Origin: a virus
Virus genome (UHGV): UHGV-0375936
Reading direction: 5' to 3' (one strand)
Length of the DNA stretch: 64,000 bases
Shown: positions 2 to 47,508 of the stretch, piece by piece
Position numbering within the stretch: the stretch's first letter is position 1
Layout of the letters: each line of letters opens with the position of its first letter
Position numbers and translations under genes: made by a program
The notes under the pieces: generated by a model
Databases searched by the model: none
What the model saw: only the letters and a program-made list of their open reading frames with translations
What the model was told of the DNA's origin: nothing

Positions 2-2770
2 AAAACTGCAACCCGTGTAAATGCTCAGTATCTGGATAACATGCGATTGGCACAGTACGGATTTAGAGATCATGACGAGTGGTCTTCCGATGATGGCGCA
101 AAAGCACGTTATTTAGAAGACAACTTGAAACCGTATATCTCTTATACAGAGAATGGTCAAGCACAGTTGCGTGGTTTGTCCGGTGACGACGTGAAGAAAC
201 TGGCCGAAGGGTTTGGTACTAACGTAGAAGACAAAGGCGAAATGCTGGCGTTTAGTGCGTTTATGCTACAACGTTTTGTGCCGATCTATTTACGTTGGAT
301 TACGGCACTGAAATCCATGGATAATGATATCGCGTTAGCAGATGTCGGTAATCCTGCGAAAGTGTCGAAAGCGGACATGCTGAGTATCTTCAACAAAATG
401 AAGATGTCGAAAGATGCACCTGCTTTCCGTGCTTTAGAAGACCCCCGTAAGGTTAACCAAGGTTGGTTCTCTAAAGCGTGGGATTTCGTAACGTTTACCC
501 CGGCCGAGTTTTTGTCAGGCGAAGAAGTCGTTGAAGCGCAAGAACGCGTGCTTCGTTCGATTAACATGCGTCGTGATGAAAAACGTAAGGATGTAAATGC
601 TACAGGCGGTGTGGCCGAAGGACACAAAGTTGCTTCTGTGGCAGAATCGACCCAAGCGTTGGCTCAAGCGGATGCGGAACGCAACAAAGAAGTTGCGAAA
701 GTTGAAGGTTGGGAAGACGGCACCGAACAAGTTCAGGTTCAAGTCGACTGGAGAAGTTTACCTAAAGAAACCGATCTTCGTGATTTAGAATCTGTAAGGT
801 TGAAAGCTTATGGCGCGGTGAGCATTACTCAAACAACCCGTAACCTCTATACGCTCTTGGAACGTCAAGTGTTGCAAGACACCGATGTGAAAAGCTGTAC
901 GTATAAAGGCGACTGGAAACGTGCGATTGCGGTGATTGCGCCTGACGCCATTGGTGGGCCAAAAGAAGATCGGTACAAGAACTGGTTCTATAACCGCTTC
1001 TTGCCTGTCTTCATGACGTACATCGTTGGGGTAAAACGTTATGTTCCTGCCGCCGATCCGATGGACCTACGCGTTACGGGTGGGTTCTTGTATGAAATCG
1101 CACTGATGATGCGTGGTGCATACAACCTGAAAGGGGGTATTCGTCAGTCAGTGTGGGAGGTACCGTTTAACCCGTTAGGGGGAGACGCTAACACCGACGC
1201 TGGTTCAGTTGCAACAGAGTTAGAGAACCTGAAAGAACTGTCTAAGGAAGCTGACTTGGCAGTACGTAAAACGCTGCGTGCTACGCCTTCTGCGGGTTTC
1301 CGTGTGAACTGGCAGCGAAAAGATCGTGCGACCCAGATGTTCTTGACTGACGATGAGAAGGAGCAACCGACTCGACCACAGATGAACACCTCCTCCTCTT
1401 ATCGTGACCTATTGCAACCGGCAGCGAACGACGGTGGGAATTACGGCACACCAAACGATTTGGCCGGTGCTTACGGTAAGATGGGAGCTAAGAATTACGC
1501 CGCATTTACTACCGGTAACTTCGGCGTGAAACTTGGCGATATGCAAGACGGTGACTATAAAACGTTAGCGGCTAAGTATCCAATTTCAACGTTGGGTGAC
1601 GGATTGAAGCCTAACTTGAATGCGGTTGCAGCACTGATTACAGACGTAGCGAAGATGATGGGTGTTCCTCCAGCGTTAGCACTGGGAATGGCACAAGCAG
1701 AATCTGGGCTTAGATACGGTATCAAAGCTAAAGGAAGTTCTGCGGCTGGCTTGTTCCAGTTCATCAACGATACCTGGGGTGCGCAGATGAAAGCTTATGC
1801 GAGACGTTATGGTATCCCGCAAACCAACCAGTATGACCCGTGGGCGAATGCTCTGCTTGGCGTCCGTCATATTCGTGATAATATCGAGAAAGCCAGAAAG
1901 GATTTAGGTGGTATCGATCCTCCAGGTGCAGCTGTTTACCTCTACCACTTCTTAGGACAAGGTGGCGGTAAGAAATTCCTGCAAGAATGGAAGCGTGATC
2001 CGAACGGCCCATCGTCGCGTGGTGCGTCGGCCGATCAAATCGCGGCAAACAGCACAATTTTCTACAAGAATGGAAAATTGCGTAGTTTGGATGAAGTGCT
2101 CAACATCATGGGTGGTAAGATTGGTGCCGTAGGAACAAACGCGATCGCGGCTAACCAGGCATCGCTGAAAGACTTGACGACAGGCGTAACGCCAATGCCG
2201 TCTTCCCCGGCTATCGCTGCAGGTGCCGCTAACGATCCGTCTATCACAGGCCCGGCAGATAACCTGCCAGCCGCGAACGAGGCGAATCGCGACTCCGCTT
2301 TAGCAGACAAAGGCGCGATGGGTGCTGAAGATATTAAAGCTGCAACGGGTGGTGGTCCGGCTGTGCCGAGTCCCGGTGGCGATGTCACGCCGAGCGATGC
2401 GTCAGTTGTTGTAGAGACGGTGGGTCAAAATGCACGTGCTGATGGCCTGGCCGAAGAGGAAGTTGCCAAAGTAAAAGAAGGTGCTAGACAGCAGATGGAG
2501 AAATCGACCCGCCCTGCACCAACGGTAACTTCCGATGCTCAGACCGCTTCTACAGTGAACAGTGGTGATCCGATTAGCGTACAACAGCTGGCGGTTGCAA
2601 AAGAGTCTGCGGGCTATCTGAGAGAGATTGTAACAATTCTTCGTCAGCGACCACAGGCTATGCAAAACGGTCCGGCTAACCCGGCGTCAACCGCTCCGGG
2701 TTCGGCGTCACGTAACGTGTCAATAACTCAACCCGCGCCGAAACTCGACGTTAGTCGTAAATCAGCGTAA
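2..2770 (+). CDS. Large virion-associated protein with soluble lytic transglycosylase (SLT-like) domain; 5' end probably outside window
   Basis: Frame is open from window edge (no in-frame stop before first ATG at 41); SLT motif AESGLRYG...AAGLFQF around aa 555-585; Ala/Pro/Gly/Ser-rich C-terminal tail; hairpin terminator follows. Confidence 0.7.
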   Translation, partial: KTATRVNAQYLDNMRLAQYGFRDHDEWSSDDGAKARYLEDNLKPYISYTENGQAQLRGLSGDDVKKLAEGFGTNVEDKGEMLAFSAFMLQRFVPIYLRWITALKSMDNDIALADVGNPAKVSKADMLSIFNKMKMSKDAPAFRALEDPRKVNQGWFSKAWDFVTFTPAEFLSGEEVVEAQERVLRSINMRRDEKRKDVNATGGVAEGHKVASVAESTQALAQADAERNKEVAKVEGWEDGTEQVQVQVDWRSLPKETDLRDLESVRLKAYGAVSITQTTRNLYTLLERQVLQDTDVKSCTYKGDWKRAIAVIAPDAIGGPKEDRYKNWFYNRFLPVFMTYIVGVKRYVPAADPMDLRVTGGFLYEIALMMRGAYNLKGGIRQSVWEVPFNPLGGDANTDAGSVATELENLKELSKEADLAVRKTLRATPSAGFRVNWQRKDRATQMFLTDDEKEQPTRPQMNTSSSYRDLLQPAANDGGNYGTPNDLAGAYGKMGAKNYAAFTTGNFGVKLGDMQDGDYKTLAAKYPISTLGDGLKPNLNAVAALITDVAKMMGVPPALALGMAQAESGLRYGIKAKGSSAAGLFQFINDTWGAQMKAYARRYGIPQTNQYDPWANALLGVRHIRDNIEKARKDLGGIDPPGAAVYLYHFLGQGGGKKFLQEWKRDPNGPSSRGASADQIAANSTIFYKNGKLRSLDEVLNIMGGKIGAVGTNAIAANQASLKDLTTGVTPMPSSPAIAAGAANDPSITGPADNLPAANEANRDSALADKGAMGAEDIKAATGGGPAVPSPGGDVTPSDASVVVETVGQNARADGLAEEEVAKVKEGARQQMEKSTRPAPTVTSDAQTASTVNSGDPISVQQLAVAKESAGYLREIVTILRQRPQAMQNGPANPASTAPGSASRNVSITQPAPKLDVSRKSA

Positions 2771-5006: not shown

Positions 5007-5570
5007 ATGGCTAATACGCTATTAGGTAAATCAGGAAAACAGCTGGTTTATGAGTTATTAGTAAAAAAGAATCCAGGTTTGGTAGAGAAAGGTATTACAA
5101 TCGATAAGTTGAATTTTGGCACACCGGCACTTATCCCTGCGGTAGAAACACCAGAAACTCAATTTACGCGATTAAATACCCAACTTAGCGTCCAGGGAAT
5201 TATTGAACAGAAAACGTTTGGTAAAATTGACGTTATTTATCGTCGATTGGATTTAGAACACCTCTTAGGTGACTTTGTAGTTTCTGTTGCGGGTATCAAT
5301 GCGGCTACGGTATCTGAGGTACTACAGCTTTTTCGCACTAAGTACAATTTGCAGATTACCGACGATGAAGTTGAGAACCCAACAGCTGCACCGGACAGCA
5401 AAGATAAAACCATCATTATCATGAATGGGAGATCTTTGGCGTGGACGGGGCGGTTGGAGGTGTACTTGACAGAGCTACCGTCCGACGGTAAGGATATTTC
5501 GAAGTTGATTAAAGTCACCGAACTTGACGGTTTGACGTATATCTCTTCTGGGATTGTTCCAGGCGCTTAA
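5007..5570 (+). CDS. Hypothetical protein (187 aa)
   Basis: ORF with GAGAGGAAATA-ATG spacing; 16 nt after previous stop; followed by terminator. Confidence 0.6.
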   Translation: MANTLLGKSGKQLVYELLVKKNPGLVEKGITIDKLNFGTPALIPAVETPETQFTRLNTQLSVQGIIEQKTFGKIDVIYRRLDLEHLLGDFVVSVAGINAATVSEVLQLFRTKYNLQITDDEVENPTAAPDSKDKTIIIMNGRSLAWTGRLEVYLTELPSDGKDISKLIKVTELDGLTYISSGIVPGA

Positions 5571-5596
5571 AAAAGAAAAAAAAATAAGAAAGTTAA

Positions 5597-5630
5597 CCTA
5601 CCTCCTTTCGGAGGTAGGTGCTTTTATTTA
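5597..5630. terminator. Bidirectional rho-independent terminator between convergent genes
   Basis: CCTACCTCC-tttcg-GAGGTAGG hairpin flanked by A-run upstream and T-rich run downstream. Confidence 0.6.
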
Positions 5631-6461
5631 TTTCGCCAAGTCTGCTTCTTTTACAAAGATACCGTCGGCATTCAGGTAACCTTTACGGTCTTTGATTTCG
5701 TGCCAGGCCAAAGAGAAACAATGGCGAATATCCAGTTTGTAATACAAGGCGATACGGGCAAGATGGGCTAAACCCAGGCTGACGAAATCGAAACCATGAT
5801 CTTTACCTTCCATAAAGGTTGTGGCAAAACTTTCAATAGCGTGAAGGTATTGTTGATGTGGGTATCCAGCGTTGTTTAAATTTTCTTCAACTTCAGCTAC
5901 ATCTTCCACGCCTAAGCGTAGACCAGACTCGATGCAGTCTTCTGCCACTGTAAGGTGACCAGAATACGCATCCCCTAATTCGATGATGTTTACCAGAACC
6001 ACCAACGCATCACCAATACCATCCATGATCAGTTCAGGTTTGTTTTTACTGATACCCGCCGCAATTTCACCTAACTCTTCAAAGAACTTCGTGATTTGGG
6101 TTTCCAGTTTGCCGTTATCGAGAATCCCACGTTCTTTAGACCAACCTTTAACGAGTTTTACACATTTTGCGATCGTGCAAACTAGAACAGATTCTGTATG
6201 CATTACCGTACCGTTATAAACGGCATCGGTAAGCTTAATAGGCGCTACAATCGTTTCAATATCCAGTTCTTGATTACCGGTGTGGCGTTTACCTTCTACA
6301 CGAATACGGTTAGTACCAGGATTTACCCCGATGGTGTAGATGGCATCAAATTGAATTGCTTTCTCATTCAGAGCACGCAGTTGTGCGTTAACTTCTTCCA
6401 GGTGCTGACCAGGATTAACTACGATGTTGTAAATAGCGTTGATGTCAAAACGTTCGCCCAT
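5628..6461 (-). CDS. MazG-like nucleoside triphosphate pyrophosphohydrolase domain protein (277 aa)
   Basis: Central segment ITKFFEELGEIAAGISKNKPELIMDGIGDALVVLVNIIELGD resembles MazG/all-alpha NTP-PPase EExxE...D motif; N-terminal part unassigned. Confidence 0.45.
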   Translation of the reverse strand: MGERFDINAIYNIVVNPGQHLEEVNAQLRALNEKAIQFDAIYTIGVNPGTNRIRVEGKRHTGNQELDIETIVAPIKLTDAVYNGTVMHTESVLVCTIAKCVKLVKGWSKERGILDNGKLETQITKFFEELGEIAAGISKNKPELIMDGIGDALVVLVNIIELGDAYSGHLTVAEDCIESGLRLGVEDVAEVEENLNNAGYPHQQYLHAIESFATTFMEGKDHGFDFVSLGLAHLARIALYYKLDIRHCFSLAWHEIKDRKGYLNADGIFVKEADLAK

Positions 6462-6480
6462 TCTAAAACTCCATTAGATT

Positions 6481-6524
6481 AACAAAAAAAGAATAAAGAT
6501 TAGGGGTGCTACATAAGCACCCCG
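6481..6524 (-). terminator. Rho-independent terminator (minus strand)
   Basis: GGGGTGCT-tatgtag-AGCACCCC hairpin followed on minus strand by T-rich run (revcomp of aacaaaaaaagaataaag). Confidence 0.55.
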
Positions 6525-27993: not shown

Positions 27994-28452
27994 TCAGTAC
28001 AAACACGATGTCAAGTATTGGTTATACGAATCGAGCAGTGTCTGACGGTCGGAACGGTAATTCCACAACAAATTATTGAGTTTACGCGATAAGTCACGGC
28101 TAATCTCCTGGGGCGTTAAAGAGCTTTCATCAAGAGATAAGCGTTCAGGTACAACATGTAACTTCGGTAACTCATAACGTTCACAAAGTGGAGCCAGCAT
28201 TGGTGGGCTCCAGCCACGTTTAACGGCTTGTTGGTTTAAATTTCGGGTGTAGACATAAACGTAGTAAGCATAGGTGTTGACATCCGCAACATACTCACGC
28301 ATTGCATTATTGTCAATTTTCCAATTCACCATTATTGGCGGTGTAGGAGGAAGTTCCAGTGGCCTATAAGCTGGACGTTTAACTTCGTCGCCGTAGCTAT
28401 TACTCACCAACCCCACGAACACCATCATGATGAATAACAGCATTTTCATCAA
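27994..28452 (-). CDS. Secreted Pro-rich protein (152 aa)
   Basis: N-terminal signal-like MMKMLLFIMMVFVGLVSNSYG; RPAYRPLELPPTPPI; start abuts stop of upstream membrane protein. Confidence 0.55.
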   Translation of the reverse strand: MMKMLLFIMMVFVGLVSNSYGDEVKRPAYRPLELPPTPPIMVNWKIDNNAMREYVADVNTYAYYVYVYTRNLNQQAVKRGWSPPMLAPLCERYELPKLHVVPERLSLDESSLTPQEISRDLSRKLNNLLWNYRSDRQTLLDSYNQYLTSCLY

Positions 28453-28956
28453 TCACTCCTTAGAAGACGTTAGCGTCTTTATGATCTCCTGTCGAAAACT
28501 GTTCGCATTTAAATTGCCAACAGGTCTCGCCGAAGCCTCTTTACGTTGTTCTGGTGTTGAAGCTGGATTAACAGGAGTTTCTGGTTTTGTCGAAGACAGA
28601 TCCTTCGCCGTACCGCTCGCTTTCGATGAATTAAACGTGCTTTCATATGGCGGTTTCTGGCCGAGGCAAACGAAGAGCCTGTCGTATAACTTCCCATTAT
28701 CTTCTTTTAGTTTATCTCGATCTTGTTTCATCTCTTGGTAAGACTGCGACATATACGTGTCATGAGACTGCACTGCAACGAGCGCGTGAAACTGTTGTAC
28801 ATAGGCGTAGGAGACGAAGCCAGAATACGACAACAAGATCGTGATGATTAAAGTCATTATCTTGCTTGCTCTTGATACGTTTTCTCCTTCTCCTGGTTTA
28901 AATGCTTCCATTAACATCTGAAGGAAGAACGGAAGCACTTTAAAAAATGAACCCAT
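28453..28956 (-). CDS. Membrane protein with charged periplasmic-type segment (167 aa), i-spanin-like architecture
   Basis: Single TM IMTLIITILLSYSGFVSYAYV then QEMKQDRDKLKEDNGKLYDRL and Pro/Ser/Thr-rich tail. Confidence 0.45.
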   Translation of the reverse strand: MGSFFKVLPFFLQMLMEAFKPGEGENVSRASKIMTLIITILLSYSGFVSYAYVQQFHALVAVQSHDTYMSQSYQEMKQDRDKLKEDNGKLYDRLFVCLGQKPPYESTFNSSKASGTAKDLSSTKPETPVNPASTPEQRKEASARPVGNLNANSFRQEIIKTLTSSKE

Positions 28957-33173: not shown

Positions 33174-33683
33174 TTAGAAGAACGGCTGATTTGGAATGAC
33201 AGCGTACTCTAAAATGAACATATGTTCCGGGGCGTCTTCTTTACGCCAGACTTTGTGTGTCGACACAAGTTTTTCCAGAATCGTTAAGAAACTACGTTGG
33301 CAGTATGTGTTTTCACCAAGCAGTAGATTTTGAAGTTCTACAGTAGCGTCCATATACGCCTGTTTAAAGACTAAACTACGGTTATACTGCCCGGTAAAAT
33401 TCCAAAGCAAGACCTTCCCTTCTTCGGTTTCTTTTACCGTTGGCCGTAAACCACAAATCCACAGTAAGGCAAGGTTGACGTTCCAGTCAAACTCTAAACC
33501 TTCTTCTTCGTCAACACCGAATGCTGTGGGTAAAGCATCGTAAAATTCGTGTTTCTCTGCGAATTCTTCATCCGACTTAATCTCGTCTTCGATACTGCTT
33601 CGGACAATACTGTAAACGTCTTTCGCGGTCAATTGTGCGGCTTTTGTAATGCCTTTATACCAATCGGTTACTACGATGCTCAA
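33174..33683 (-). CDS. Hypothetical protein (169 aa)
   Basis: ORF, 4-nt overlap with upstream SLT gene. Confidence 0.55.
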   Translation of the reverse strand: MSIVVTDWYKGITKAAQLTAKDVYSIVRSSIEDEIKSDEEFAEKHEFYDALPTAFGVDEEEGLEFDWNVNLALLWICGLRPTVKETEEGKVLLWNFTGQYNRSLVFKQAYMDATVELQNLLLGENTYCQRSFLTILEKLVSTHKVWRKEDAPEHMFILEYAVIPNQPFF

Positions 33684-34405
33684 AGGGTAACTCCTCTATT
33701 GATTGGAAAACTCGTGTTTATCGTATCCCAAATTCTACTAACTTCCGCCAGTTGAATCTGACGTGGTGTTTTCTTCGCAAACGCAAGCTGACGTGGGGCC
33801 GAGCCCACAACAACAGGCACATCGATTTTCGCGCTATAGAACGAGGCGTCTTTCATAAAGCCTGCCATTTCTCGTTGTGCTGCTCGAGATTTGCTTTTGA
33901 TTCGCGTGTGAGCGCCACTTTCACCCCAGTGGTAAGCTAACGCAACTTCAGCCATGGTGGGCTTGCGTTTGAGTCGTTTGGTTAACCCCTTCTCAAGATG
34001 TTTAACATACGCGGTAGCCAGCAAAACAGCATTACGCGGATTATACAAATCGGCGTTCTGACTAAGACCTAATTCTTTTCCATAAAGCTTTAGCAGATTA
34101 CGCTTGGTACTTGGAAGCATTTGTACCAGGCTGTGTGCTCGTGAGCTTTTGTTGTAAGCCTTGGGATCAAAACGCGATTCACGATAAATCAGCGTAATCA
34201 TCAGCTTGGGATCAACGCCCTGCTTTCGTGAGATTTCCACAATTAACGGGCTGACTTTTTCGAACCGATGTTGGATTTGTGCAAACTCTCGCTGATGCTT
34301 AGAATGTGGCGTTGACGTTGACGCCTGTGCGTTAAACGCGAAAAGTGTTACCAGTAAAAGAAAGAAGATACGAAACATTTTGTTTCTCCAGTTGGATTTA
34401 TACAT
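33680..34405 (-). CDS. Secreted lytic transglycosylase (SLT domain); candidate endolysin
   Basis: Signal-like MFRIFFLLLVTLFAFNAQA; SLT motif YRESRFDPKAY...SLVQMLPST...AYHWGE. Confidence 0.7.
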   Translation of the reverse strand: MYKSNWRNKMFRIFFLLLVTLFAFNAQASTSTPHSKHQREFAQIQHRFEKVSPLIVEISRKQGVDPKLMITLIYRESRFDPKAYNKSSRAHSLVQMLPSTKRNLLKLYGKELGLSQNADLYNPRNAVLLATAYVKHLEKGLTKRLKRKPTMAEVALAYHWGESGAHTRIKSKSRAAQREMAGFMKDASFYSAKIDVPVVVGSAPRQLAFAKKTPRQIQLAEVSRIWDTINTSFPINRGVTL

Positions 34406-40384: not shown

Positions 40385-40420
40385 ATATGTCGTAAAAAGG
40401 ACCCCGGACGTACCGGGGCC
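40385..40420 (-). terminator. Rho-independent terminator (minus strand), end of secreted-protein operon
   Basis: CCCCGG-acgta-CCGGGG hairpin then TCCTTTTTACG on minus strand. Confidence 0.55.
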
Positions 40421-40430
40421 AAGACTACAC

Positions 40431-40820
40431 TCAAAGATCTAATTCGATAGCACCAGCCATCTTGCCCCGTTCTTCTATAACGATCAGATAACGGTCGCGA
40501 GATTTGCTTTTAGCGAGAGTTAAGACAACGGTAGGGTCGCACGTTTTCGTGGTGATAGGAAGAACCTCTCTTGCGACGGAATCGAGCAGAAAGTAATAAC
40601 CTGCGGGACACATTGTGCCGCCATCAGCTTTTACCAGAATATAGCGCCCGTCTGCGCCGACTTCTTGGCAGATTGTTTCACCGACTTCGCAAACTTCAAA
40701 CCCCGGAGGATTGTACTGGTAATCGGTATTGTTGTTTGGGGTTAGCAGTAAATCGTTAACTTGAGTAGATGCTGCTACACTCAGGGAGAAGAAGAATGCT
40801 AAAACGCAGACGAGACGCAT
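40431..40820 (-). CDS. Secreted small Cys-containing protein 1 (129 aa)
   Basis: Signal-like MRLVCVLAFFFSLSVAAS; AAGGAG RBS; CEVGETICQ...GRYILV motif shared with next gene. Confidence 0.6.
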   Translation of the reverse strand: MRLVCVLAFFFSLSVAASTQVNDLLLTPNNNTDYQYNPPGFEVCEVGETICQEVGADGRYILVKADGGTMCPAGYYFLLDSVAREVLPITTKTCDPTVVLTLAKSKSRDRYLIVIEERGKMAGAIELDL

Positions 40821-40830
40821 GAGTTACTCC

Positions 40831-41241
40831 TTAAATTTTAAGTTTATCCATAGCTACAACGATAGGTTTTTCCGAAGTGTCTAATATCCCTACCATTGGC
40901 ACACCATCTACGACTTCGAAGAATGGTTTGTTATTACCAGAGCATAGACGTTTGTCGTTGTATTCGAGACGCTGAGCCTTCCACGTTTCGAGGTTGAGTA
41001 CGGACATTGGGCTGTCGTAGCACCAGGCACCACCTTGCTCAACGATGAATACGTATCTGCTACCTTTGTATTTAAACAGGCTCTTTGCCTGGCAGTACAA
41101 CCCGTCTATTTCCGTACAATAGAAATCATCGGTGCTATTGACGTACTTAATATTGTCTGGCAACTGTATTGTCTTTGCTGTAGCGTTGACAGAGAACAGA
41201 ACAGCCATTGCAATGAGAAGAGTATTAATGATAGTTTTCAT
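40831..41241 (-). CDS. Secreted small Cys-containing protein 2 (136 aa), paralog of protein 1
   Basis: Signal-like MKTIINTLLIAMAVLFSVNATA; CTEIDGLYCQ...SRYVFIV. Confidence 0.6.
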   Translation of the reverse strand: MKTIINTLLIAMAVLFSVNATAKTIQLPDNIKYVNSTDDFYCTEIDGLYCQAKSLFKYKGSRYVFIVEQGGAWCYDSPMSVLNLETWKAQRLEYNDKRLCSGNNKPFFEVVDGVPMVGILDTSEKPIVVAMDKLKI

Positions 41242-41252
41242 GATAAAAGTCC

Positions 41253-41738
41253 TTAGTATTTAGATTGTTCTACGTACTTCTTAACCAGGTAAGCGAATTC
41301 GGCAACACCGATATCACCGAACCAAATCAGGTAACCGGGGTCGATGTTGTAGTAATAACCGACGAGTTTCTTGGTGTGTGGGTTGTATAGCGTTACGATG
41401 TATTCCCAACCACAAGCGTTAGCTTTACAACCGCCACTTTCAATCCAGATTTTGTTGTTGATGTTTACCGGATACATGTTACCGCCAGGGCCATCCATGT
41501 AACCTTTAGAGCCGAACATACCATCCAGTCCCACAGGGTCTAGTGTTTTATCAACAACGGCTTTAAACGACTTATCGGTATCGTACAAGTCGTTGATGTT
41601 TGGGCACGCATTTGGCTGGCCTTCCCAAGCGTTTCCATCACAGGTAAGCAATTCGTCTACGGAGGCCGCATCTACAGTTGGCGTGGCACCGATAAACAAG
41701 AAAACCAGAAAGAACATCAGTGTATGTAAACGTTTCAT
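41253..41738 (-). CDS. Secreted small protein 3 (161 aa)
   Basis: Signal-like MKRLHTLMFFLVFLFIGATPTVDAA; Cys pairs CDGNAWEGQPNACPN, CKANAC. Confidence 0.6.
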   Translation of the reverse strand: MKRLHTLMFFLVFLFIGATPTVDAASVDELLTCDGNAWEGQPNACPNINDLYDTDKSFKAVVDKTLDPVGLDGMFGSKGYMDGPGGNMYPVNINNKIWIESGGCKANACGWEYIVTLYNPHTKKLVGYYYNIDPGYLIWFGDIGVAEFAYLVKKYVEQSKY

Positions 41739-41756
41739 TGTAACTACTCCTTTAGA

Positions 41757-42149
41757 TTATTCGGCAGGACGATTTAAGGTAACGCGTCCGATTAATTCAG
41801 CGTTGTGAAAGAAGTCCACAGCGGTATAGTTACCAACTGATAGCGGATGGATACTAACTGACATTACTTTTGGTTGTTCGCAGGCGATATCCGTCAGGCG
41901 TTGGTAGACTTGTGCACGAGTGTCAGCAATGAGTAATCCCGTACACGTTTCACCACGCACTAAACGATAAACTTGCAGTTTACCGAAACTGCGCATTAAC
42001 GTAGGCGTCTCATCCGGGTTGATAATCGGTGACTCAGGAGCCGGTTCGTAATAGCGGACATCCGAATCACCGAAAGCATAAGTGCCAGTAATTCCGACCG
42101 CACAGAAAACAATGATAGTATAAAGTATAGTTCTGATATTCATTTTCAC
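41757..42149 (-). CDS. Secreted small protein 4 (130 aa)
   Basis: Signal-like MKMNIRTILYTIIVFCAVGITGTYAF. Confidence 0.6.
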   Translation of the reverse strand: MKMNIRTILYTIIVFCAVGITGTYAFGDSDVRYYEPAPESPIINPDETPTLMRSFGKLQVYRLVRGETCTGLLIADTRAQVYQRLTDIACEQPKVMSVSIHPLSVGNYTAVDFFHNAELIGRVTLNRPAE

Positions 42150-42171
42150 GCACTCTAAAAAAGATTAATAC

Positions 42172-42633
42172 TTATTTGTTAGGACGGGTGTGTCCACAGT
42201 TCTGGAAGAAAGTTTCAGATAAACGATCGCCTTCTACGGTAAAGTTAGCGGCATCGTTACCATTGATACTCACACTGAAAGTTTTGGCATTACCGATAGC
42301 ATTAACGAAAGCAACCCAAGCGTGTTCTGCCTTGTCGCTACCGTCCACGGTAGGGATGTTATAGGTTTTGCCGTTTACGACAATATCCATCATGTTATCT
42401 TCAGCGTTAGTTGCACCTACGGGTTCCCCGTAATACCAAACCATGCGACCGTAAAATTTGCGATTCACAGTTTCTGTGTCACAGTTGATAGACAGTCCGT
42501 TTCCGGCGGTGTCTTCGATTTCGTAAACTGCCTGGCCAGGGTTTTGTATTTGTTCCCAACTATTGATTGCAGCGTATGCGCTATTGAGGCCGAAAGTTAA
42601 AATGGTTATTAAGAATGTGATAAAGGTTTTCAT
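42172..42633 (-). CDS. Secreted small protein 5 (153 aa)
   Basis: Signal-like MKTFITFLITILTFGLNSAYA. Confidence 0.6.
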   Translation of the reverse strand: MKTFITFLITILTFGLNSAYAAINSWEQIQNPGQAVYEIEDTAGNGLSINCDTETVNRKFYGRMVWYYGEPVGATNAEDNMMDIVVNGKTYNIPTVDGSDKAEHAWVAFVNAIGNAKTFSVSINGNDAANFTVEGDRLSETFFQNCGHTRPNK

Positions 42634-42679
42634 TGAAATGCTCCTTCGAGTTATGGGGAAGCTCCCACAAATTATGAAA

Positions 42680-43051
42680 TTAAATAACTGTGTTGGGTAA
42701 TGCTTTAATCTGTGTATAACTATCTCCGATACCTCTTATCATTTCCAGACGCTCTTCTGTAGAAAGGCTTTGGTTAATGTCTTTGTCAAGATTGAACAGT
42801 GTCAAGAGTTTTGCAATTGCAACCGTCAAGTTGTCGGACAGCTCGTTGTTTTTACGCCATTCTTCGTTACGGAAAATAGAGATAAGGTCTTTCGCCTGGC
42901 CTTCAGCGTGCGGTTTGGCTAACTGCGCGTCACGCTGTTCGATAAGGTATGCTTCGTTAGTAAGTAAACGTTTCAGGTTTTCTGGGTTAGTGGCAGCGCG
43001 AGTAACGATCATTAATACAACAAACGGGTCTTTAAATAATTCGTTTTTCAT
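42680..43051 (-). CDS. Hypothetical protein (123 aa), first gene of secreted-protein operon
   Basis: TTTTAGGAGAACTAAAG-ATG; no signal peptide. Confidence 0.55.
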   Translation of the reverse strand: MKNELFKDPFVVLMIVTRAATNPENLKRLLTNEAYLIEQRDAQLAKPHAEGQAKDLISIFRNEEWRKNNELSDNLTVAIAKLLTLFNLDKDINQSLSTEERLEMIRGIGDSYTQIKALPNTVI

Positions 43052-43081: not shown

Positions 43082-43125
43082 GTGAGAGCTTTTGTACTCT
43101 CACCTAAGTAATATATATCTGAAAT
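43082..43125 (-). promoter_or_regulatory. Conserved 25-nt motif plus leader hairpin (copy 1); candidate promoter
   Basis: Minus-sense ATTTCAGATATATATTACTTAGGTG followed by GTGAGAG...CTCTCAC hairpin, then RBS/ATG of 42680-43051; 23 of 25 nt identical to copy at 47484-47508. Confidence 0.35.
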
Positions 43126-43141
43126 TATTTTTAATATTAAC

Positions 43142-43178
43142 GAACAAAAAAATAAAAGGTGGGGGTAAACCCCCCACC
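43142..43178 (-). terminator. Rho-independent terminator (minus strand)
   Basis: GGTGGGGG-taaac-CCCCCACC hairpin then TTTTATTTTTTTGTT on minus strand. Confidence 0.65.
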
Positions 43179-47453: not shown

Positions 47454-47508
47454 AGGGACTGAACTGGTACTTCAGTCCCTATTCACTTAAGTAAAATATA
47501 TCTGAAAT
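47454..47508 (-). promoter_or_regulatory. Conserved 25-nt motif plus leader hairpin (copy 2); candidate promoter
   Basis: Minus-sense ATTTCAGATATATTTTACTTAAGTG followed by AGGGACTGAA...TTCAGTCCCT hairpin; 23 of 25 nt identical to copy at 43101-43125. Confidence 0.35.

What the first reader, a model, noticed from the sequence alone, without database searches (positions are those of the whole stretch)
40431..43051. Operon of five tandem small signal-peptide proteins behind a leader gene
Five consecutive minus-strand genes (129-161 aa) each begin with a classical signal-peptide-like hydrophobic N-terminus and several carry paired cysteines; proteins 1 and 2 are clear paralogs (C.E.G..ICQ......RY.I.V). 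They follow a 123-aa cytoplasmic-type gene and sit between a promoter-like motif (43101-43125) and a terminator (40385-40420). A block of five exported proteins in a lytic phage suggests periplasmic functions such as superinfection exclusion, inhibition of host envelope enzymes or receptor masking; none matches a family I can name.
Basis: partly seen in the sequence, partly recalled or inferred. Interest (0 to 1): 0.65.

Follow-up and report, generated by a model that had tools for sequence, protein, structure and literature searches.

The report
Jumbo-phage operon of exported periplasmic proteins
A giant Salmonella/E. coli-type phage has a self-contained operon that sends five small proteins into the host periplasm; one is a relative of the bacterial lysozyme and cell-wall-enzyme inhibitor Ivy, and E. 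coli chromosomal islands have copied part of this same operon.

Summary
Six minus-strand genes lie between two intrinsic terminators, behind a 40-nt promoter element. Five consecutive products have signal-peptide-like N-termini and an even number of mature cysteines. The window comes from an unsequenced relative of the SPN3US and phiEaH2 jumbo phages. The unit promoter–[variable first slot]–P4–[slot 3]–P2–P1–terminator is conserved across that clade.

P3 is a divergent Ivy-family protein:
- its eight best PDB fold matches are all Ivy;
- hhalign gives 99.2% to a Pfam-validated Ivy domain;
- its C-KANA-C loop aligns on Ivy's CKPHDC but lacks the His and Asp.

P5 belongs to the YfjT family. P1 and P2 are paralogs in a very small 4-Cys all-beta family. 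P4 has no assigned family. The SPN3US orthologs gp180–183 are not virion proteins.

138 of 5,426 complete E. coli genomes hold sequence matching a captured fragment of such an operon: a promoter relic, a broken P4 and an intact P3.

My best reading (inferred, about 0.4) is an early periplasmic cassette whose Ivy-like member blocks SLT-type wall-cleaving enzymes of incoming phages, much as T4 Spackle does. No function has been shown for any of these proteins.

The parts
43158..43178 (-). Intrinsic terminator of the upstream operon; it marks the 5' boundary of the unit
   Evidence: 8-bp GC-rich stem followed by TTTTATTTTT.
43096..43135 (-). Conserved 40-nt promoter element ATTAAAAATAATTTCAGATATATATTACTTAGGTGAGAGT, probably an early promoter read by the virion RNA polymerase (class inferred)
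   Evidence: 100% identical to a non-orthologous intergenic site in phiEaH2. Recurs 4-7 times per genome in SPN3US-like and Erwinia relatives, mostly in unannotated DNA. Lies directly upstream of the orthologous block in all seven relatives examined. Not sigma-70-like. A review states that such conserved AT-rich motifs mark early operons in RNAP-encoding jumbo phages (PMC7598289).
43078..43107 (-). 12-bp hairpin in the 5' leader that begins inside the conserved element
   Evidence: RNA fold -18.5 kcal/mol, z = -5.4, 0 of 200 shuffles as stable. L010 keeps the same 12-bp stem with a different loop; L013 and SPN3US form a shorter hairpin there with other downstream partners, though the L013 stretch as a whole folds no better than its shuffles (z = -0.78).
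42680..43051 (-). Leader: 123-aa protein with no signal peptide and no cysteines; a variable first-slot gene of unknown function
   Evidence: phrog_27024, unknown function. Only 46% identical in L010 and absent from L013, SPN3US and phiEaH2. dN/dS 0.38. Relatives at 29-36% identity at other loci, one of them also directly behind a copy of the promoter element.
42172..42633 (-). P5: exported 153-aa YfjT-family protein (2 mature Cys); a variable-slot gene
   Evidence: 24% identity over 133 aa, E 2e-14, to E. coli K-12 YfjT of the CP4-57 island. Its 87%-identical ortholog in L013 carries a precomputed Pfam PF27224 YfjT hit. Absent from L010-L012 and from all 50,697 phage records. Likely cleavage after AYA at residue 21.
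41757..42149 (-). P4: exported 128/130-aa protein (2 mature Cys); clade-conserved, family unassigned
   Evidence: phrog_9424. 45-52% identical to SPN3US gp180 and phiEaH2 gp104. Not demonstrably related to P1 or P2. dN/dS 0.05-0.075. A pseudogene copy exists in E. coli islands.
41253..41738 (-). P3: exported 161-aa divergent Ivy-family protein with a disulfide-type loop C104-KANA-C109
   Evidence: AF2 model pLDDT 80.7. Top 8 Foldseek PDB hits are all Ivy, probability 1.00, target-normalised TM 0.60-0.69. tblastn E 2e-10 to Klebsiella genes annotated as Ivy family, one of which passes the Pfam Ivy threshold. hhalign 99.2%, E 1.6e-19. The loop aligns on Ivy's CKPHDC.
40831..41241 (-). P2: exported 136-aa member of the 4-Cys all-beta family
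40431..40820 (-). P1: exported 129-aa member of the 4-Cys family; paralog of P2
   Evidence: phrog_5248. 48-52% identical to SPN3US gp183 and phiEaH2 gp107. hhalign to the P2 family 90%, E 1.8e-6.
40393..40420 (-). Intrinsic terminator that closes the operon
   Evidence: 8-bp stem with 7 GC pairs plus CTTTTT. Fold -19.4 kcal/mol, z = -3.6.
33680..34405 (-). Context (candidate target): 241-aa SLT-domain muralytic protein with a signal-peptide or SAR-like N-terminus
   Evidence: Pfam SLT PF01464, 55.6 bits. PHROG transglycosylase and endolysin families. N-terminus passes the signal-peptide rule.
41..2770 (+). Context (candidate target class): C-terminal part of a giant tail protein carrying an SLT domain
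   Evidence: phrog_3201 tail fiber protein, E 2.5e-227, plus a transglycosylase family. Pfam SLT, 31.5 bits.

Best explanation
This is a self-contained transcription unit of a SPN3US-like jumbo phage. It runs from a clade-specific promoter element to an intrinsic terminator, and its products are exported by the Sec pathway into the host periplasm.

The unit has a conserved core (P4, slot 3, P2, P1) and a variable front slot, which here holds the leader and the YfjT-like P5. In this lineage slot 3 holds an Ivy-family protein (P3) instead of the third 4-Cys paralog found in SPN3US and phiEaH2.

Proposed mechanism:
1. The operon is transcribed early from the conserved promoter.
2. P3 accumulates in the periplasm and uses its disulfide-closed beta-hairpin loop to block peptidoglycan-cleaving enzymes of the lysozyme or lytic-transglycosylase type.
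3. The most likely target is the SLT domain on the tail of incoming related phages. That would give superinfection exclusion and protection from lysis from without, as T4 Spackle does against the gp5 lysozyme.
4. The 4-Cys proteins probably act with P3. P4 and P5 are accessory periplasmic factors of unknown role.

Shown: the operon anatomy and its conservation, export-type N-termini, Ivy fold and homology for P3, YfjT homology for P5, P1/P2 paralogy, non-virion status of the SPN3US orthologs, and capture of the module by E. coli islands.

Inferred: the early timing, the inhibitory activity, the identity of the target, and any cooperation among the five proteins.
For: Anatomy and conservation:
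- The ORFs, terminators and promoter element are as described.
- The same element lies upstream of the orthologous block in SPN3US, phiEaH2, Asesino, SPAsTU, pEa_SNUABM_29, L010 and L013.
- The first slot varies between close relatives.

Export:
- The five proteins account for 5 of the 8 signal-peptide-like ORFs among 66 in the window.
- Mature cysteine counts are all even.

P3 is Ivy family:
- NCBIfam Ivy hit, E 1.3e-3.
- 9 of 14 family members hit Pfam Ivy weakly.
- hhalign against E. coli Ivy places CKANAC on CKPHDC.
- The top 8 Foldseek hits are all Ivy.
- tblastn E 2e-10 to genes annotated as Ivy family; that Klebsiella protein passes the Pfam Ivy threshold; hhalign 99.2%, E 1.6e-19.

What Ivy does: it inhibits C-type lysozyme through the CKPHDC loop (PMC4262234) and, at least weakly, lytic transglycosylases (PMC3660660; PMC10139938).

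Candidate targets: the window itself encodes two SLT-domain proteins, one on the tail.

Precedent: T4 Spackle is an early, periplasmic, disulfide-bonded inhibitor of the tail lysozyme that gives superinfection exclusion (PMC7677548).

Host capture: E. coli CP4-type islands carry a relic of the phage promoter, a P4 pseudogene and an intact P3. Matching sequence is in 138 of 5,426 complete genomes, 31 of them covering at least 80% of the fragment. This shows that P3 alone is worth keeping to a bacterium.

Functional coupling: a Klebsiella gene probably fuses an Ivy domain to a 4-Cys domain.

Selection: dN/dS is 0.05-0.20.
Against: - P3 lacks the His and Asp of the CKPHDC loop that is essential for lysozyme inhibition.
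- P3 itself scores far below the curated Ivy thresholds: 18.6 bits against 180 for NCBIfam, and no Pfam hit.
- E. coli Ivy is only a weak inhibitor of lytic transglycosylases in vitro, with no detectable binding (PMC10139938).
- No activity, binding partner or expression time has been measured for any of these proteins.
- The early class of the promoter rests on analogy with phiKZ and AR9. The SPN3US time-course paper could not be read.
- P1, P2, P4 and P5 show no similarity to any known inhibitor fold or family.
- Signal peptides were judged with a home-made rule, not a trained predictor.
Confidence: 0.4

Rival explanations
1. Control of the phage's own lysis. P3, possibly with the other proteins, holds the phage's own Sec-exported SLT-type endolysin (33680-34405) inactive in the periplasm until lysis time, or contributes to lysis inhibition.
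For: The 241-aa SLT protein has a signal-peptide or SAR-like N-terminus, so a muralytic enzyme may reach the periplasm before lysis. Ivy-type proteins inhibit lytic transglycosylases. phiKZ shows multiplicity-dependent slowing of lysis (PMC12894885 abstract).
Against: SPN3US and phiEaH2 lack P3 and carry a 4-Cys paralog in that slot, so P3 cannot be a core lysis regulator for the clade. E. coli islands keep P3 without any phage endolysin. The operon is about 6 kb from the SLT gene and in a different transcription unit.
Confidence: 0.2
2. Manipulation of the host envelope. The exported proteins inhibit or redirect the host's own lytic transglycosylases and other envelope enzymes, stabilising the wall during the long jumbo-phage cycle or after tail penetration.
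For: Ivy has been proposed to control bacterial autolytic lytic transglycosylases and is induced by peptidoglycan damage. Five different exported proteins suggest several envelope targets.
Against: Inhibition of E. coli MltA and MltB by Ivy is weak and not protective in vivo. This does not readily explain why host islands would retain a phage-derived P3.
Confidence: 0.15
3. A non-inhibitory periplasmic role. P3 acts as a chaperone or binding protein, or the set masks or modifies a surface receptor, and the Ivy fold is only a scaffold.
For: The catalytic-site-binding His and Asp of the Ivy loop are missing. RefSeq also names E. coli Ivy a 'periplasmic chaperone'. P1, P2, P4 and P5 have no inhibitor-like fold.
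Against: The disulfide-closed six-residue loop with an invariant Lys and the following Gly-Trp is the most conserved feature of the P3 family, which argues for a functional protruding loop. There is no positive evidence for receptor masking.
Confidence: 0.2
4. The proteins are virion components or canonical lysis proteins (holin, spanin, endolysin).
For: Small proteins with hydrophobic N-termini can be spanins or holins. Virion structural genes lie nearby.
Against: SPN3US gp180-183 are absent from the 83-protein virion proteome; nothing is listed between gp173 and gp193. The P4 family has no conserved lipobox cysteine. Each protein has a single N-terminal hydrophobic segment followed by an AXA-type site. 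None has a muralytic domain.
Confidence: 0.03

Closest known systems
Ivy (inhibitor of vertebrate lysozyme; E. coli YkfE, P. aeruginosa Ivyp1/p2; Pfam PF08816; PDB 1GPQ, 1XS0, 1UUZ, 4PS6)
   Same: P3 has the same fold. It is homologous to a Pfam-validated Ivy domain. It carries a Sec-type signal peptide. Its disulfide-closed six-residue loop sits at the homologous position and starts with C-K.
   Different: The loop is CKANAC, not CKPHDC, so the essential His and Asp are missing. P3 has an extra conserved N-terminal Cys pair (C33/C45). It scores below the curated thresholds on its own. It is encoded by a lytic jumbo phage and by phage-derived island DNA rather than a housekeeping locus. Its target is unknown and is probably not C-type lysozyme.
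T4 Spackle (gp61.3), a superinfection-exclusion protein
   Same: It is phage-encoded, early, exported through a signal peptide, periplasmic, small and disulfide-bonded. It inhibits the tail-associated muralytic enzyme of incoming phage (PMC7677548). This is the functional model proposed here.
   Different: Spackle is an alpha-helical bundle that acts allosterically, and its authors consider it evolutionarily independent of Ivy, MliC and the Pli inhibitors. P3 has the alpha/beta Ivy fold. Spackle is a single gene, not part of a five-protein cassette. P3 is not a member of the Spackle family.
E. coli CP4-57 island cargo YfjS-YfjT and related cargo slots of CP4-type islands
   Same: P5 is a YfjT homolog. 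A 4-Cys family member lies next to yfjT in a Yersinia rohdei island. P3 homologs and an Ivy plus probable 4-Cys fusion occupy the same GTPase-WYL-cargo slot in E. coli and Klebsiella.
   Different: The island genes are uncharacterised. In E. coli the P3 segment clearly derives from phage (promoter relic and P4 pseudogene). Homology of YfjS to the 4-Cys family rests only on a motif (8.2 bits against a shuffle maximum of 6.0).
SPN3US gp180-gp183 and phiEaH2 gp104-gp107 (annotated 'hypothetical protein')
   Same: These are the orthologous operon, with the same promoter element, gene order and sizes.
   Different: Slot 3 there holds a third 4-Cys paralog instead of an Ivy-like gene. They have no leader or YfjT-like gene. 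phiEaH2 has 434-aa and 79-aa genes in the front slot.

Membership tests
Ivy family (Pfam PF08816), for P3 | Ivy three-dimensional fold (five-stranded antiparallel sheet flanked by helices) | tested here: met
   The AF2 model (pLDDT 80.7, pTM 0.74) has all eight top Foldseek PDB hits as Ivy structures, probability 1.00, target-normalised TM 0.60-0.69. The next hit has probability 0.14.
Ivy family (Pfam PF08816), for P3 | Significant sequence homology to family members that pass the curated threshold | tested here: met
   The link is indirect. P3 itself gets no Pfam hit, and 9 of 14 relatives hit only weakly. However, P3 matches a Klebsiella Ivy-annotated protein at E 2e-10, that protein scores 23.9 bits against a cutoff of 21, and hhalign between the P3 family and it gives 99.2%, E 1.6e-19.
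Ivy family (Pfam PF08816), for P3 | Disulfide-closed protruding loop at the homologous position | tested here: met
   C104-x4-C109 aligns column for column on Ivy's C-KPHD-C. Both cysteines and Lys105 are invariant in the 14-sequence family alignment. Disulfide formation itself was not tested.
Ivy family (Pfam PF08816), for P3 | CKPHDC motif (or CExxDxC) with the His that enters the lysozyme active site | tested here: not met
   P3 has CKANAC. Relatives have CKAHAC, CKSNAC or CKANTC. The bridging Klebsiella protein has CEQGNC. The motif requirement comes from PMC4262234.
Ivy family (Pfam PF08816), for P3 | Periplasmic location through a cleavable signal peptide | tested here: inconclusive
   The N-terminus passes a rule-based test, with likely cleavage after VDA at residue 24. 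No trained predictor or experiment was available.
Ivy family (Pfam PF08816), for P3 | Inhibition of C-type lysozyme or lytic transglycosylase | not testable with these tools
   This needs a biochemical assay.
NCBIfam NF007443 (Ivy equivalog), for P3 | Score at or above the curated cutoff of 180 bits | tested here: not met
   18.6 bits, against 278 bits for E. coli Ivy. P3 is not an ortholog of E. coli Ivy.
YfjT family (Pfam PF27224), for P5 | Sequence homology to YfjT | tested here: met
   BLASTP against K-12 YfjT: 24% identity over 133 aa, E 2e-14. The 87%-identical L013 ortholog has a precomputed PF27224 hit. The local Pfam scans returned no PF27224 hit for P5 or its L013 ortholog.
T4 Spackle family, for P3 and the operon | Alpha-helical bundle fold and sequence homology to gp61.3 | tested here: not met
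   P3 is an alpha/beta Ivy fold. The PHROG scan assigned five of the six proteins only to families of unknown function and gave P3 no hit at all. The resemblance is functional only.
MliC/PliC, PliI and PliG lysozyme inhibitors, for P1 and P2 | The characteristic beta-barrel or beta-sandwich inhibitor folds, or their Pfam families | tested here: not met
Lysis cassette proteins (holin, i-/o-spanin, endolysin) | Two or more transmembrane domains (holin), a lipobox cysteine (o-spanin) or a muralytic domain (endolysin) | tested here: not met
   Each protein has one N-terminal hydrophobic segment. The cysteine in P4's signal region is not conserved in orthologs. None has a muralytic domain.
Virion proteins of SPN3US-like phages | Detection in purified virions | tested here: not met
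   Table S4 of PMC5105663 lists 83 virion proteins and none between gp173 and gp193. This applies to the orthologs gp180, gp182 and gp183, not directly to P3 and P5.

The most novel reading that the evidence does not exclude
SPN3US-like jumbo phages carry a conserved early 'periplasmic arsenal' operon whose members cooperate to disarm the cell-wall-piercing enzymes of competing phages. On this reading the Ivy-like inhibitor works with 4-Cys two-blade proteins that assemble into a propeller-like complex. Enterobacterial CP4-type islands have repeatedly taken pieces of this operon (P3, YfjT-like and 4-Cys genes) and use them as a new class of envelope-level anti-phage defence. That would make the uncharacterised YfjS/YfjT-type island cargo a phage-derived defence system.
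Probability: 0.15. Interest if true: 0.85.

Novelty: new variant of a known kind. Interest (0 to 1): 0.62.

Why it matters
Periplasmic superinfection exclusion by inhibiting a tail lysozyme is understood for one protein, T4 Spackle. A phage-borne member of the bacterial Ivy inhibitor family would be a second, independent solution to the same problem. No match was found in 50,697 phage genomes or in the BFVD viral structure library.

It would also suggest a natural role for Ivy-type proteins (phage against phage, and host against phage), a question debated since Ivy was found to inhibit an enzyme that periplasmic proteins normally never meet.

The capture of a fragment of this lytic-phage operon by E. 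coli islands, with the phage promoter and a dead neighbouring gene still recognisable, is a clear case of a host domesticating a gene from a virulent jumbo phage. It also gives a direct experiment: does the island gene protect E. coli from SPN3US-like phages?

The work assigns a first functional context to SPN3US gp180-183 and to the YfjT-type island genes, all currently annotated as hypothetical or uncharacterised proteins.

Tried and rejected
- Sigma-70 promoter: the scan finds no site at the proposed position, so this was rejected in favour of the clade-specific element.
- Exact TATATTAC as a repeated window motif: only one copy in 64 kb. Looser matching finds a second, weaker copy of the element at 47480-47507.
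- Pfam, NCBIfam, PADLOC and PDB sequence searches on single proteins gave nothing above threshold. A P3 family profile against PDB sequences did not reach Ivy.
- P4 as a paralog of P1/P2: not supported (hhalign 0.8%; HMM scores no better than shuffles), despite a weak PHROG cross-hit.
- YfjS, and the E. coli 180-aa island protein, as members of the 4-Cys family: only a short C-x-GG-YY-L-D...C motif. hhalign E 0.008-0.065. HMM scores are marginal: 8.2 against a shuffle maximum of 6.0, and 4.7 against 4.6. Left as unproven.
- Multi-stretch hits of the 4-Cys profile in very long proteins are HYR, PKD or Ig-type repeats and are probably spurious.
- AFDB50 fold search: the library was not available.
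- BFVD: no viral Ivy-fold match.
- The SPN3US infection time-course proteomics (PMC6384053) and the Ivy family paper (PMC1847508) are not held. Expression timing and the exact family definition therefore come from secondary sources.
- My first assumption was that the phage acquired P3 from E. coli islands. For the E. coli copies I reversed this after finding the promoter relic and the P4 pseudogene in the island. The ultimate origin of P3 is still open; it may lie among Klebsiella-type Ivy plus 4-Cys genes.


Full report
**1. What is there.**

| Gene | Coordinates | Length |
|---|---|---|
| leader | 42680-43051 | 123 aa |
| P5 | 42172-42633 | 153 aa |
| P4 | 41757-42149 | 130 aa from GTG; 128 aa from the ATG used in relatives |
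| P3 | 41253-41738 | 161 aa |
| P2 | 40831-41241 | 136 aa |
| P1 | 40431-40820 | 129 aa |

Gene gaps are 10-46 nt. The unit is bracketed by two clean intrinsic terminators, at 43178-43158 and 40420-40400.

I applied a rule-based signal-peptide test (charged n-region, uncharged hydrophobic core, -3/-1 rule) to all 66 non-overlapping ORFs of at least 90 aa in the window. Eight pass, and five of them are this contiguous block. Mature-region cysteine counts are 4, 4, 4, 2 and 2, while the leader has none. That pattern fits oxidised periplasmic proteins. All five genes are under purifying selection (dN/dS 0.05-0.20), and the leader evolves faster (0.38).

**2. Which genome.**
There is no near-identical DNA in 50,697 phage records. 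The proteins are 45-52% identical to Erwinia phages phiEaH2, Stratton and Asesino and to Salmonella phage SPN3US. Neighbouring genes fit that placement: an SbcC-like protein, a baseplate protein, giant virion proteins and a tail protein with an SLT domain. Closer relatives exist only as metagenomic contigs of 128-228 kb and as phage-sized contigs in Salmonella and E. coli assemblies. The host is probably an enterobacterium.

**3. The promoter.**
The only DNA-level match to known phages is a 40-nt stretch at 43096-43135, ATTAAAAATAATTTCAGATATATATTACTTAGGTGAGAGT. It is 100% identical to an intergenic site at a different locus of phiEaH2.
- It recurs 4-7 times per genome in all relatives, mostly in unannotated DNA.
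- It has a second, weaker copy in the window at 47480-47507 that heads the upstream operon.
- It lies directly upstream of the orthologous gene block in SPN3US, phiEaH2, Asesino, SPAsTU, pEa_SNUABM_29 and two metagenomic relatives.
- It is not sigma-70-like.

A review of RNAP-encoding jumbo phages states that a phage-specific, highly conserved AT-rich motif near -10 marks early operons read by the virion RNA polymerase, whereas middle and late promoters are not detectable bioinformatically (PMC7598289; PMC8244752). I therefore infer an early promoter with roughly 0.7 confidence. No transcript data exist for this clade, and the SPN3US time-course paper is not held.

The transcript would begin with a 12-bp hairpin (-18.5 kcal/mol, z = -5.4). 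Relatives can form a hairpin at the same place with different 3' arms, clearly so in L010 and only weakly in L013, whose fold is no better than its shuffles.

**4. Conserved core and variable slots.**
SPN3US gp180, gp182 and gp183 (phiEaH2 gp104, gp106 and gp107) are orthologs of P4, P2 and P1. The front slot differs between genomes:

| Genome | Front slot |
|---|---|
| SPN3US | empty |
| SPAsTU, pEa_SNUABM_29 | 79-aa gene |
| phiEaH2 | 434-aa and 79-aa genes |
| L010-L012 | a 46%-identical leader only |
| L013 | P5 only |
| this window | leader and P5 |

A distant leader relative in SEGD1 also sits directly behind a terminator plus a promoter copy.

Slot 3 in SPN3US-type phages holds a same-sized exported protein (gp181 type). 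Profile comparison shows it is a paralog of P2 (97.8%, E 7.5e-13) and of P1 (86.6%). P4 is not demonstrably related to them.

**5. P3 is an Ivy-family protein.**
In this lineage slot 3 holds P3 instead of a 4-Cys paralog. The evidence builds up in steps:
- a weak NCBIfam Ivy hit, E 1.3e-3, far below the cutoff;
- 9 of 14 family members hit Pfam Ivy weakly;
- hhalign against E. coli Ivy (E 3.3e-4) puts P3's C-KANA-C exactly on Ivy's C-KPHD-C;
- an AlphaFold model (pLDDT 80.7, pTM 0.74) has all eight top Foldseek PDB hits as Ivy structures (1UUZ, 4PS6, 1GPQ, 1XS0), with probability 1.00 and target-normalised TM 0.60-0.69, and nothing else above probability 0.30;
- tblastn gives E 2e-10 over 95% of P3 to Klebsiella plasmid genes that NCBI names 'Ivy family c-type lysozyme inhibitor';
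- the N-domain of that protein passes Pfam's curated Ivy threshold (23.9 bits against 21) and matches the P3 family profile at 99.2%, E 1.6e-19.

P3 is therefore a divergent member of the Ivy family. It is not an ortholog of E. coli Ivy (18.6 bits against a 180-bit equivalog cutoff).

The defining inhibitory loop is kept in architecture but not in chemistry. Both cysteines, Lys105 and the following Gly-Trp are invariant in the family. The His and Asp of CKPHDC, which are essential for lysozyme inhibition (PMC4262234), are replaced. Some E. coli relatives have CKAHAC.

**6. The other proteins.**
- P5 is a YfjT-family protein: E 2e-14 to K-12 YfjT of the CP4-57 island, with a precomputed PF27224 hit on its L013 ortholog.
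- The 4-Cys family (P1, P2, gp181 type) is very small, with 47 clusters at E of 1e-3 or better among 1.84 billion representatives.
- P3 and P5 have no tblastn match in 50,697 phage genomes, and P3 has no match in the BFVD viral structure library.

**7. Links to enterobacterial islands.**
- In Yersinia rohdei, a gp181-type 4-Cys gene lies next to yfjT in a CP4-57-like island, in the order GTPase, WYL, 4-Cys, YfjT, DUF932, RadC, CbeA/CbtA.
- In Klebsiella, the Ivy-domain gene occupies the same GTPase-WYL cargo slot.
- The C-terminal half of the Klebsiella protein aligns all four cysteines with the P1 family: hhalign E 5.4e-4, and 12.0 bits against a maximum of 5.3 in 500 shuffles. This is a probable Ivy plus 4-Cys fusion, which argues that the two protein types work together.
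- In E. coli, P3 homologs (59-66% identical) sit in the same slot.

The E. coli case shows the direction of transfer. A 39-nt relic of the phage promoter (85% identical) precedes an exported 180-aa gene. A frameshifted, internally deleted P4 pseudogene follows (C-terminal 54 residues 78% identical), and then the intact P3 homolog. DNA identity to the window is 73% over 656 nt. Matching sequence is present on the chromosome of 138 of 5,426 complete E. coli genomes, and 31 of them cover at least 80% of the fragment.

So E. coli islands captured a piece of this kind of jumbo-phage operon and kept P3 intact while P4 decayed. The phage lineage itself carries two P3 alleles that are only 63% identical. 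Each is about as close to E. coli versions as to the other, which suggests repeated exchange.

**8. Mechanism.**
The anatomy, export signals, homologies and host capture are shown. The function is inferred.

Ivy proteins block C-type lysozyme with their loop, and they inhibit lytic transglycosylases at least weakly. This phage encodes two SLT-domain enzymes, one on a giant tail protein and one in a 241-aa protein with its own export-type N-terminus. T4 Spackle provides the precedent: it is early, periplasmic and disulfide-bonded, and it inhibits the tail lysozyme of superinfecting phage (PMC7677548).

A bacterium's retention of P3 alone is most easily explained if P3 protects cells from phage. 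I therefore favour superinfection exclusion, or protection from lysis from without, by inhibition of tail SLT domains (about 0.4). Restraint of the phage's own exported endolysin (0.2), modulation of host wall enzymes (0.15) and a non-inhibitory role (0.2) remain open.

Virion or canonical lysis roles are unlikely. SPN3US gp180-183 are absent from the 83-protein virion proteome, and no holin, spanin or endolysin features are present.

**9. Novelty and verdict.**
The operon is real, conserved and annotated everywhere as hypothetical. Its general nature (phage-encoded periplasmic proteins, one from a known inhibitor family) is a variant of known biology rather than a new category.

Three things are new:
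- an Ivy-family protein in a phage;
- a small 4-Cys family that is probably coupled to it;
- clear evidence that host islands domesticated part of a virulent jumbo phage's operon.

Weaknesses:
- The inhibitory loop lacks the canonical His and Asp.
- No activity or timing data exist.
- Signal peptides were judged by rule, not by a trained predictor.
- Three of the five proteins remain without any functional clue.

Noticed in passing
window 33680-34405 (-): A 241-aa SLT-domain (lytic transglycosylase or endolysin-type) protein has a signal-peptide or SAR-like N-terminus (MYKSNWRNKMFRIFFLLLVTLFAFNAQA|STS). This suggests a Sec-exported endolysin in this jumbo phage.
   Followed up: partly
window 27994-28452 (-) and 28453-28956 (-): Two adjacent small genes (phrog_8165 and phrog_8719, both of unknown function) have hydrophobic N-termini. 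The first has a good signal-peptide-like start (MKMLLFIMMVFVGLVSNSYG|DE). They could be a spanin or holin-type pair; this was not examined.
   Followed up: no
L005-L008 (E. coli chromosomes), locus coordinates 5019-6483: E. coli CP4-type islands hold a captured fragment of a jumbo-phage operon: a 39-nt relic of the phage promoter, an exported 180-aa gene, a frameshifted P4 pseudogene and an intact Ivy-like P3 homolog. Matching sequence is in 138 of 5,426 complete E. coli genomes (31 covering at least 80% of the fragment), always on the chromosome.
   Followed up: yes
L022:2998-3936 (Klebsiella sp. LTGPAF-6F plasmid, NZ_CP017451): A 312-aa gene annotated as Ivy family appears to be a fusion of an Ivy domain (loop CEQGNC), a Pro/Ala-rich linker and a C-terminal domain with the 4-Cys pattern of P1/P2. 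It sits in a GTPase-WYL-cargo-DUF905 island slot.
   Followed up: partly
L001:3554-3653 (SPN3US), L017:1802-1897, L018:1809-1902: In SPN3US, SPAsTU and pEa_SNUABM_29 the promoter element and its hairpin are followed by a strong terminator-like hairpin (GGCTACCTTCGGGTAGCC plus a T-run) before the first gene. This could be an attenuator or a short non-coding RNA. The window has no equivalent.
   Followed up: no
L010:3615-3677: In the closest relative, the leader gene is followed by its own terminator-like hairpin (GAGGGGACTCTGTCCCCTTTTATTTTTT) before P4. The leader may therefore be transcriptionally separable from the exported genes in that phage. The window has only a weak stem without a T-run at the equivalent place.
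   Followed up: no
window 47480-47507 (-): A second, diverged copy of the promoter element (5 mismatches in 28) lies in the divergent intergenic region upstream of the 47113-43183 minus-strand operon, opposite a plus-strand baseplate gene.
   Followed up: partly
L013:4082-4564 compared with window 41253-41738: The P3 gene is mosaic between close relatives: 97.5% identical to L010 but only 65% to L013, although the flanking P4 is 94.5% identical to L013. This indicates allele replacement at slot 3 within the lineage.
   Followed up: partly
P0062-P0067 (Salmonella phages SPFM1, 6, 8, 12, 14, 20; gp181-type genes): Several SPFM phage records contain scrambled or permuted versions of the gp181-type protein sequence. 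These look like assembly or annotation artefacts, and I excluded them from the alignments.
   Followed up: no
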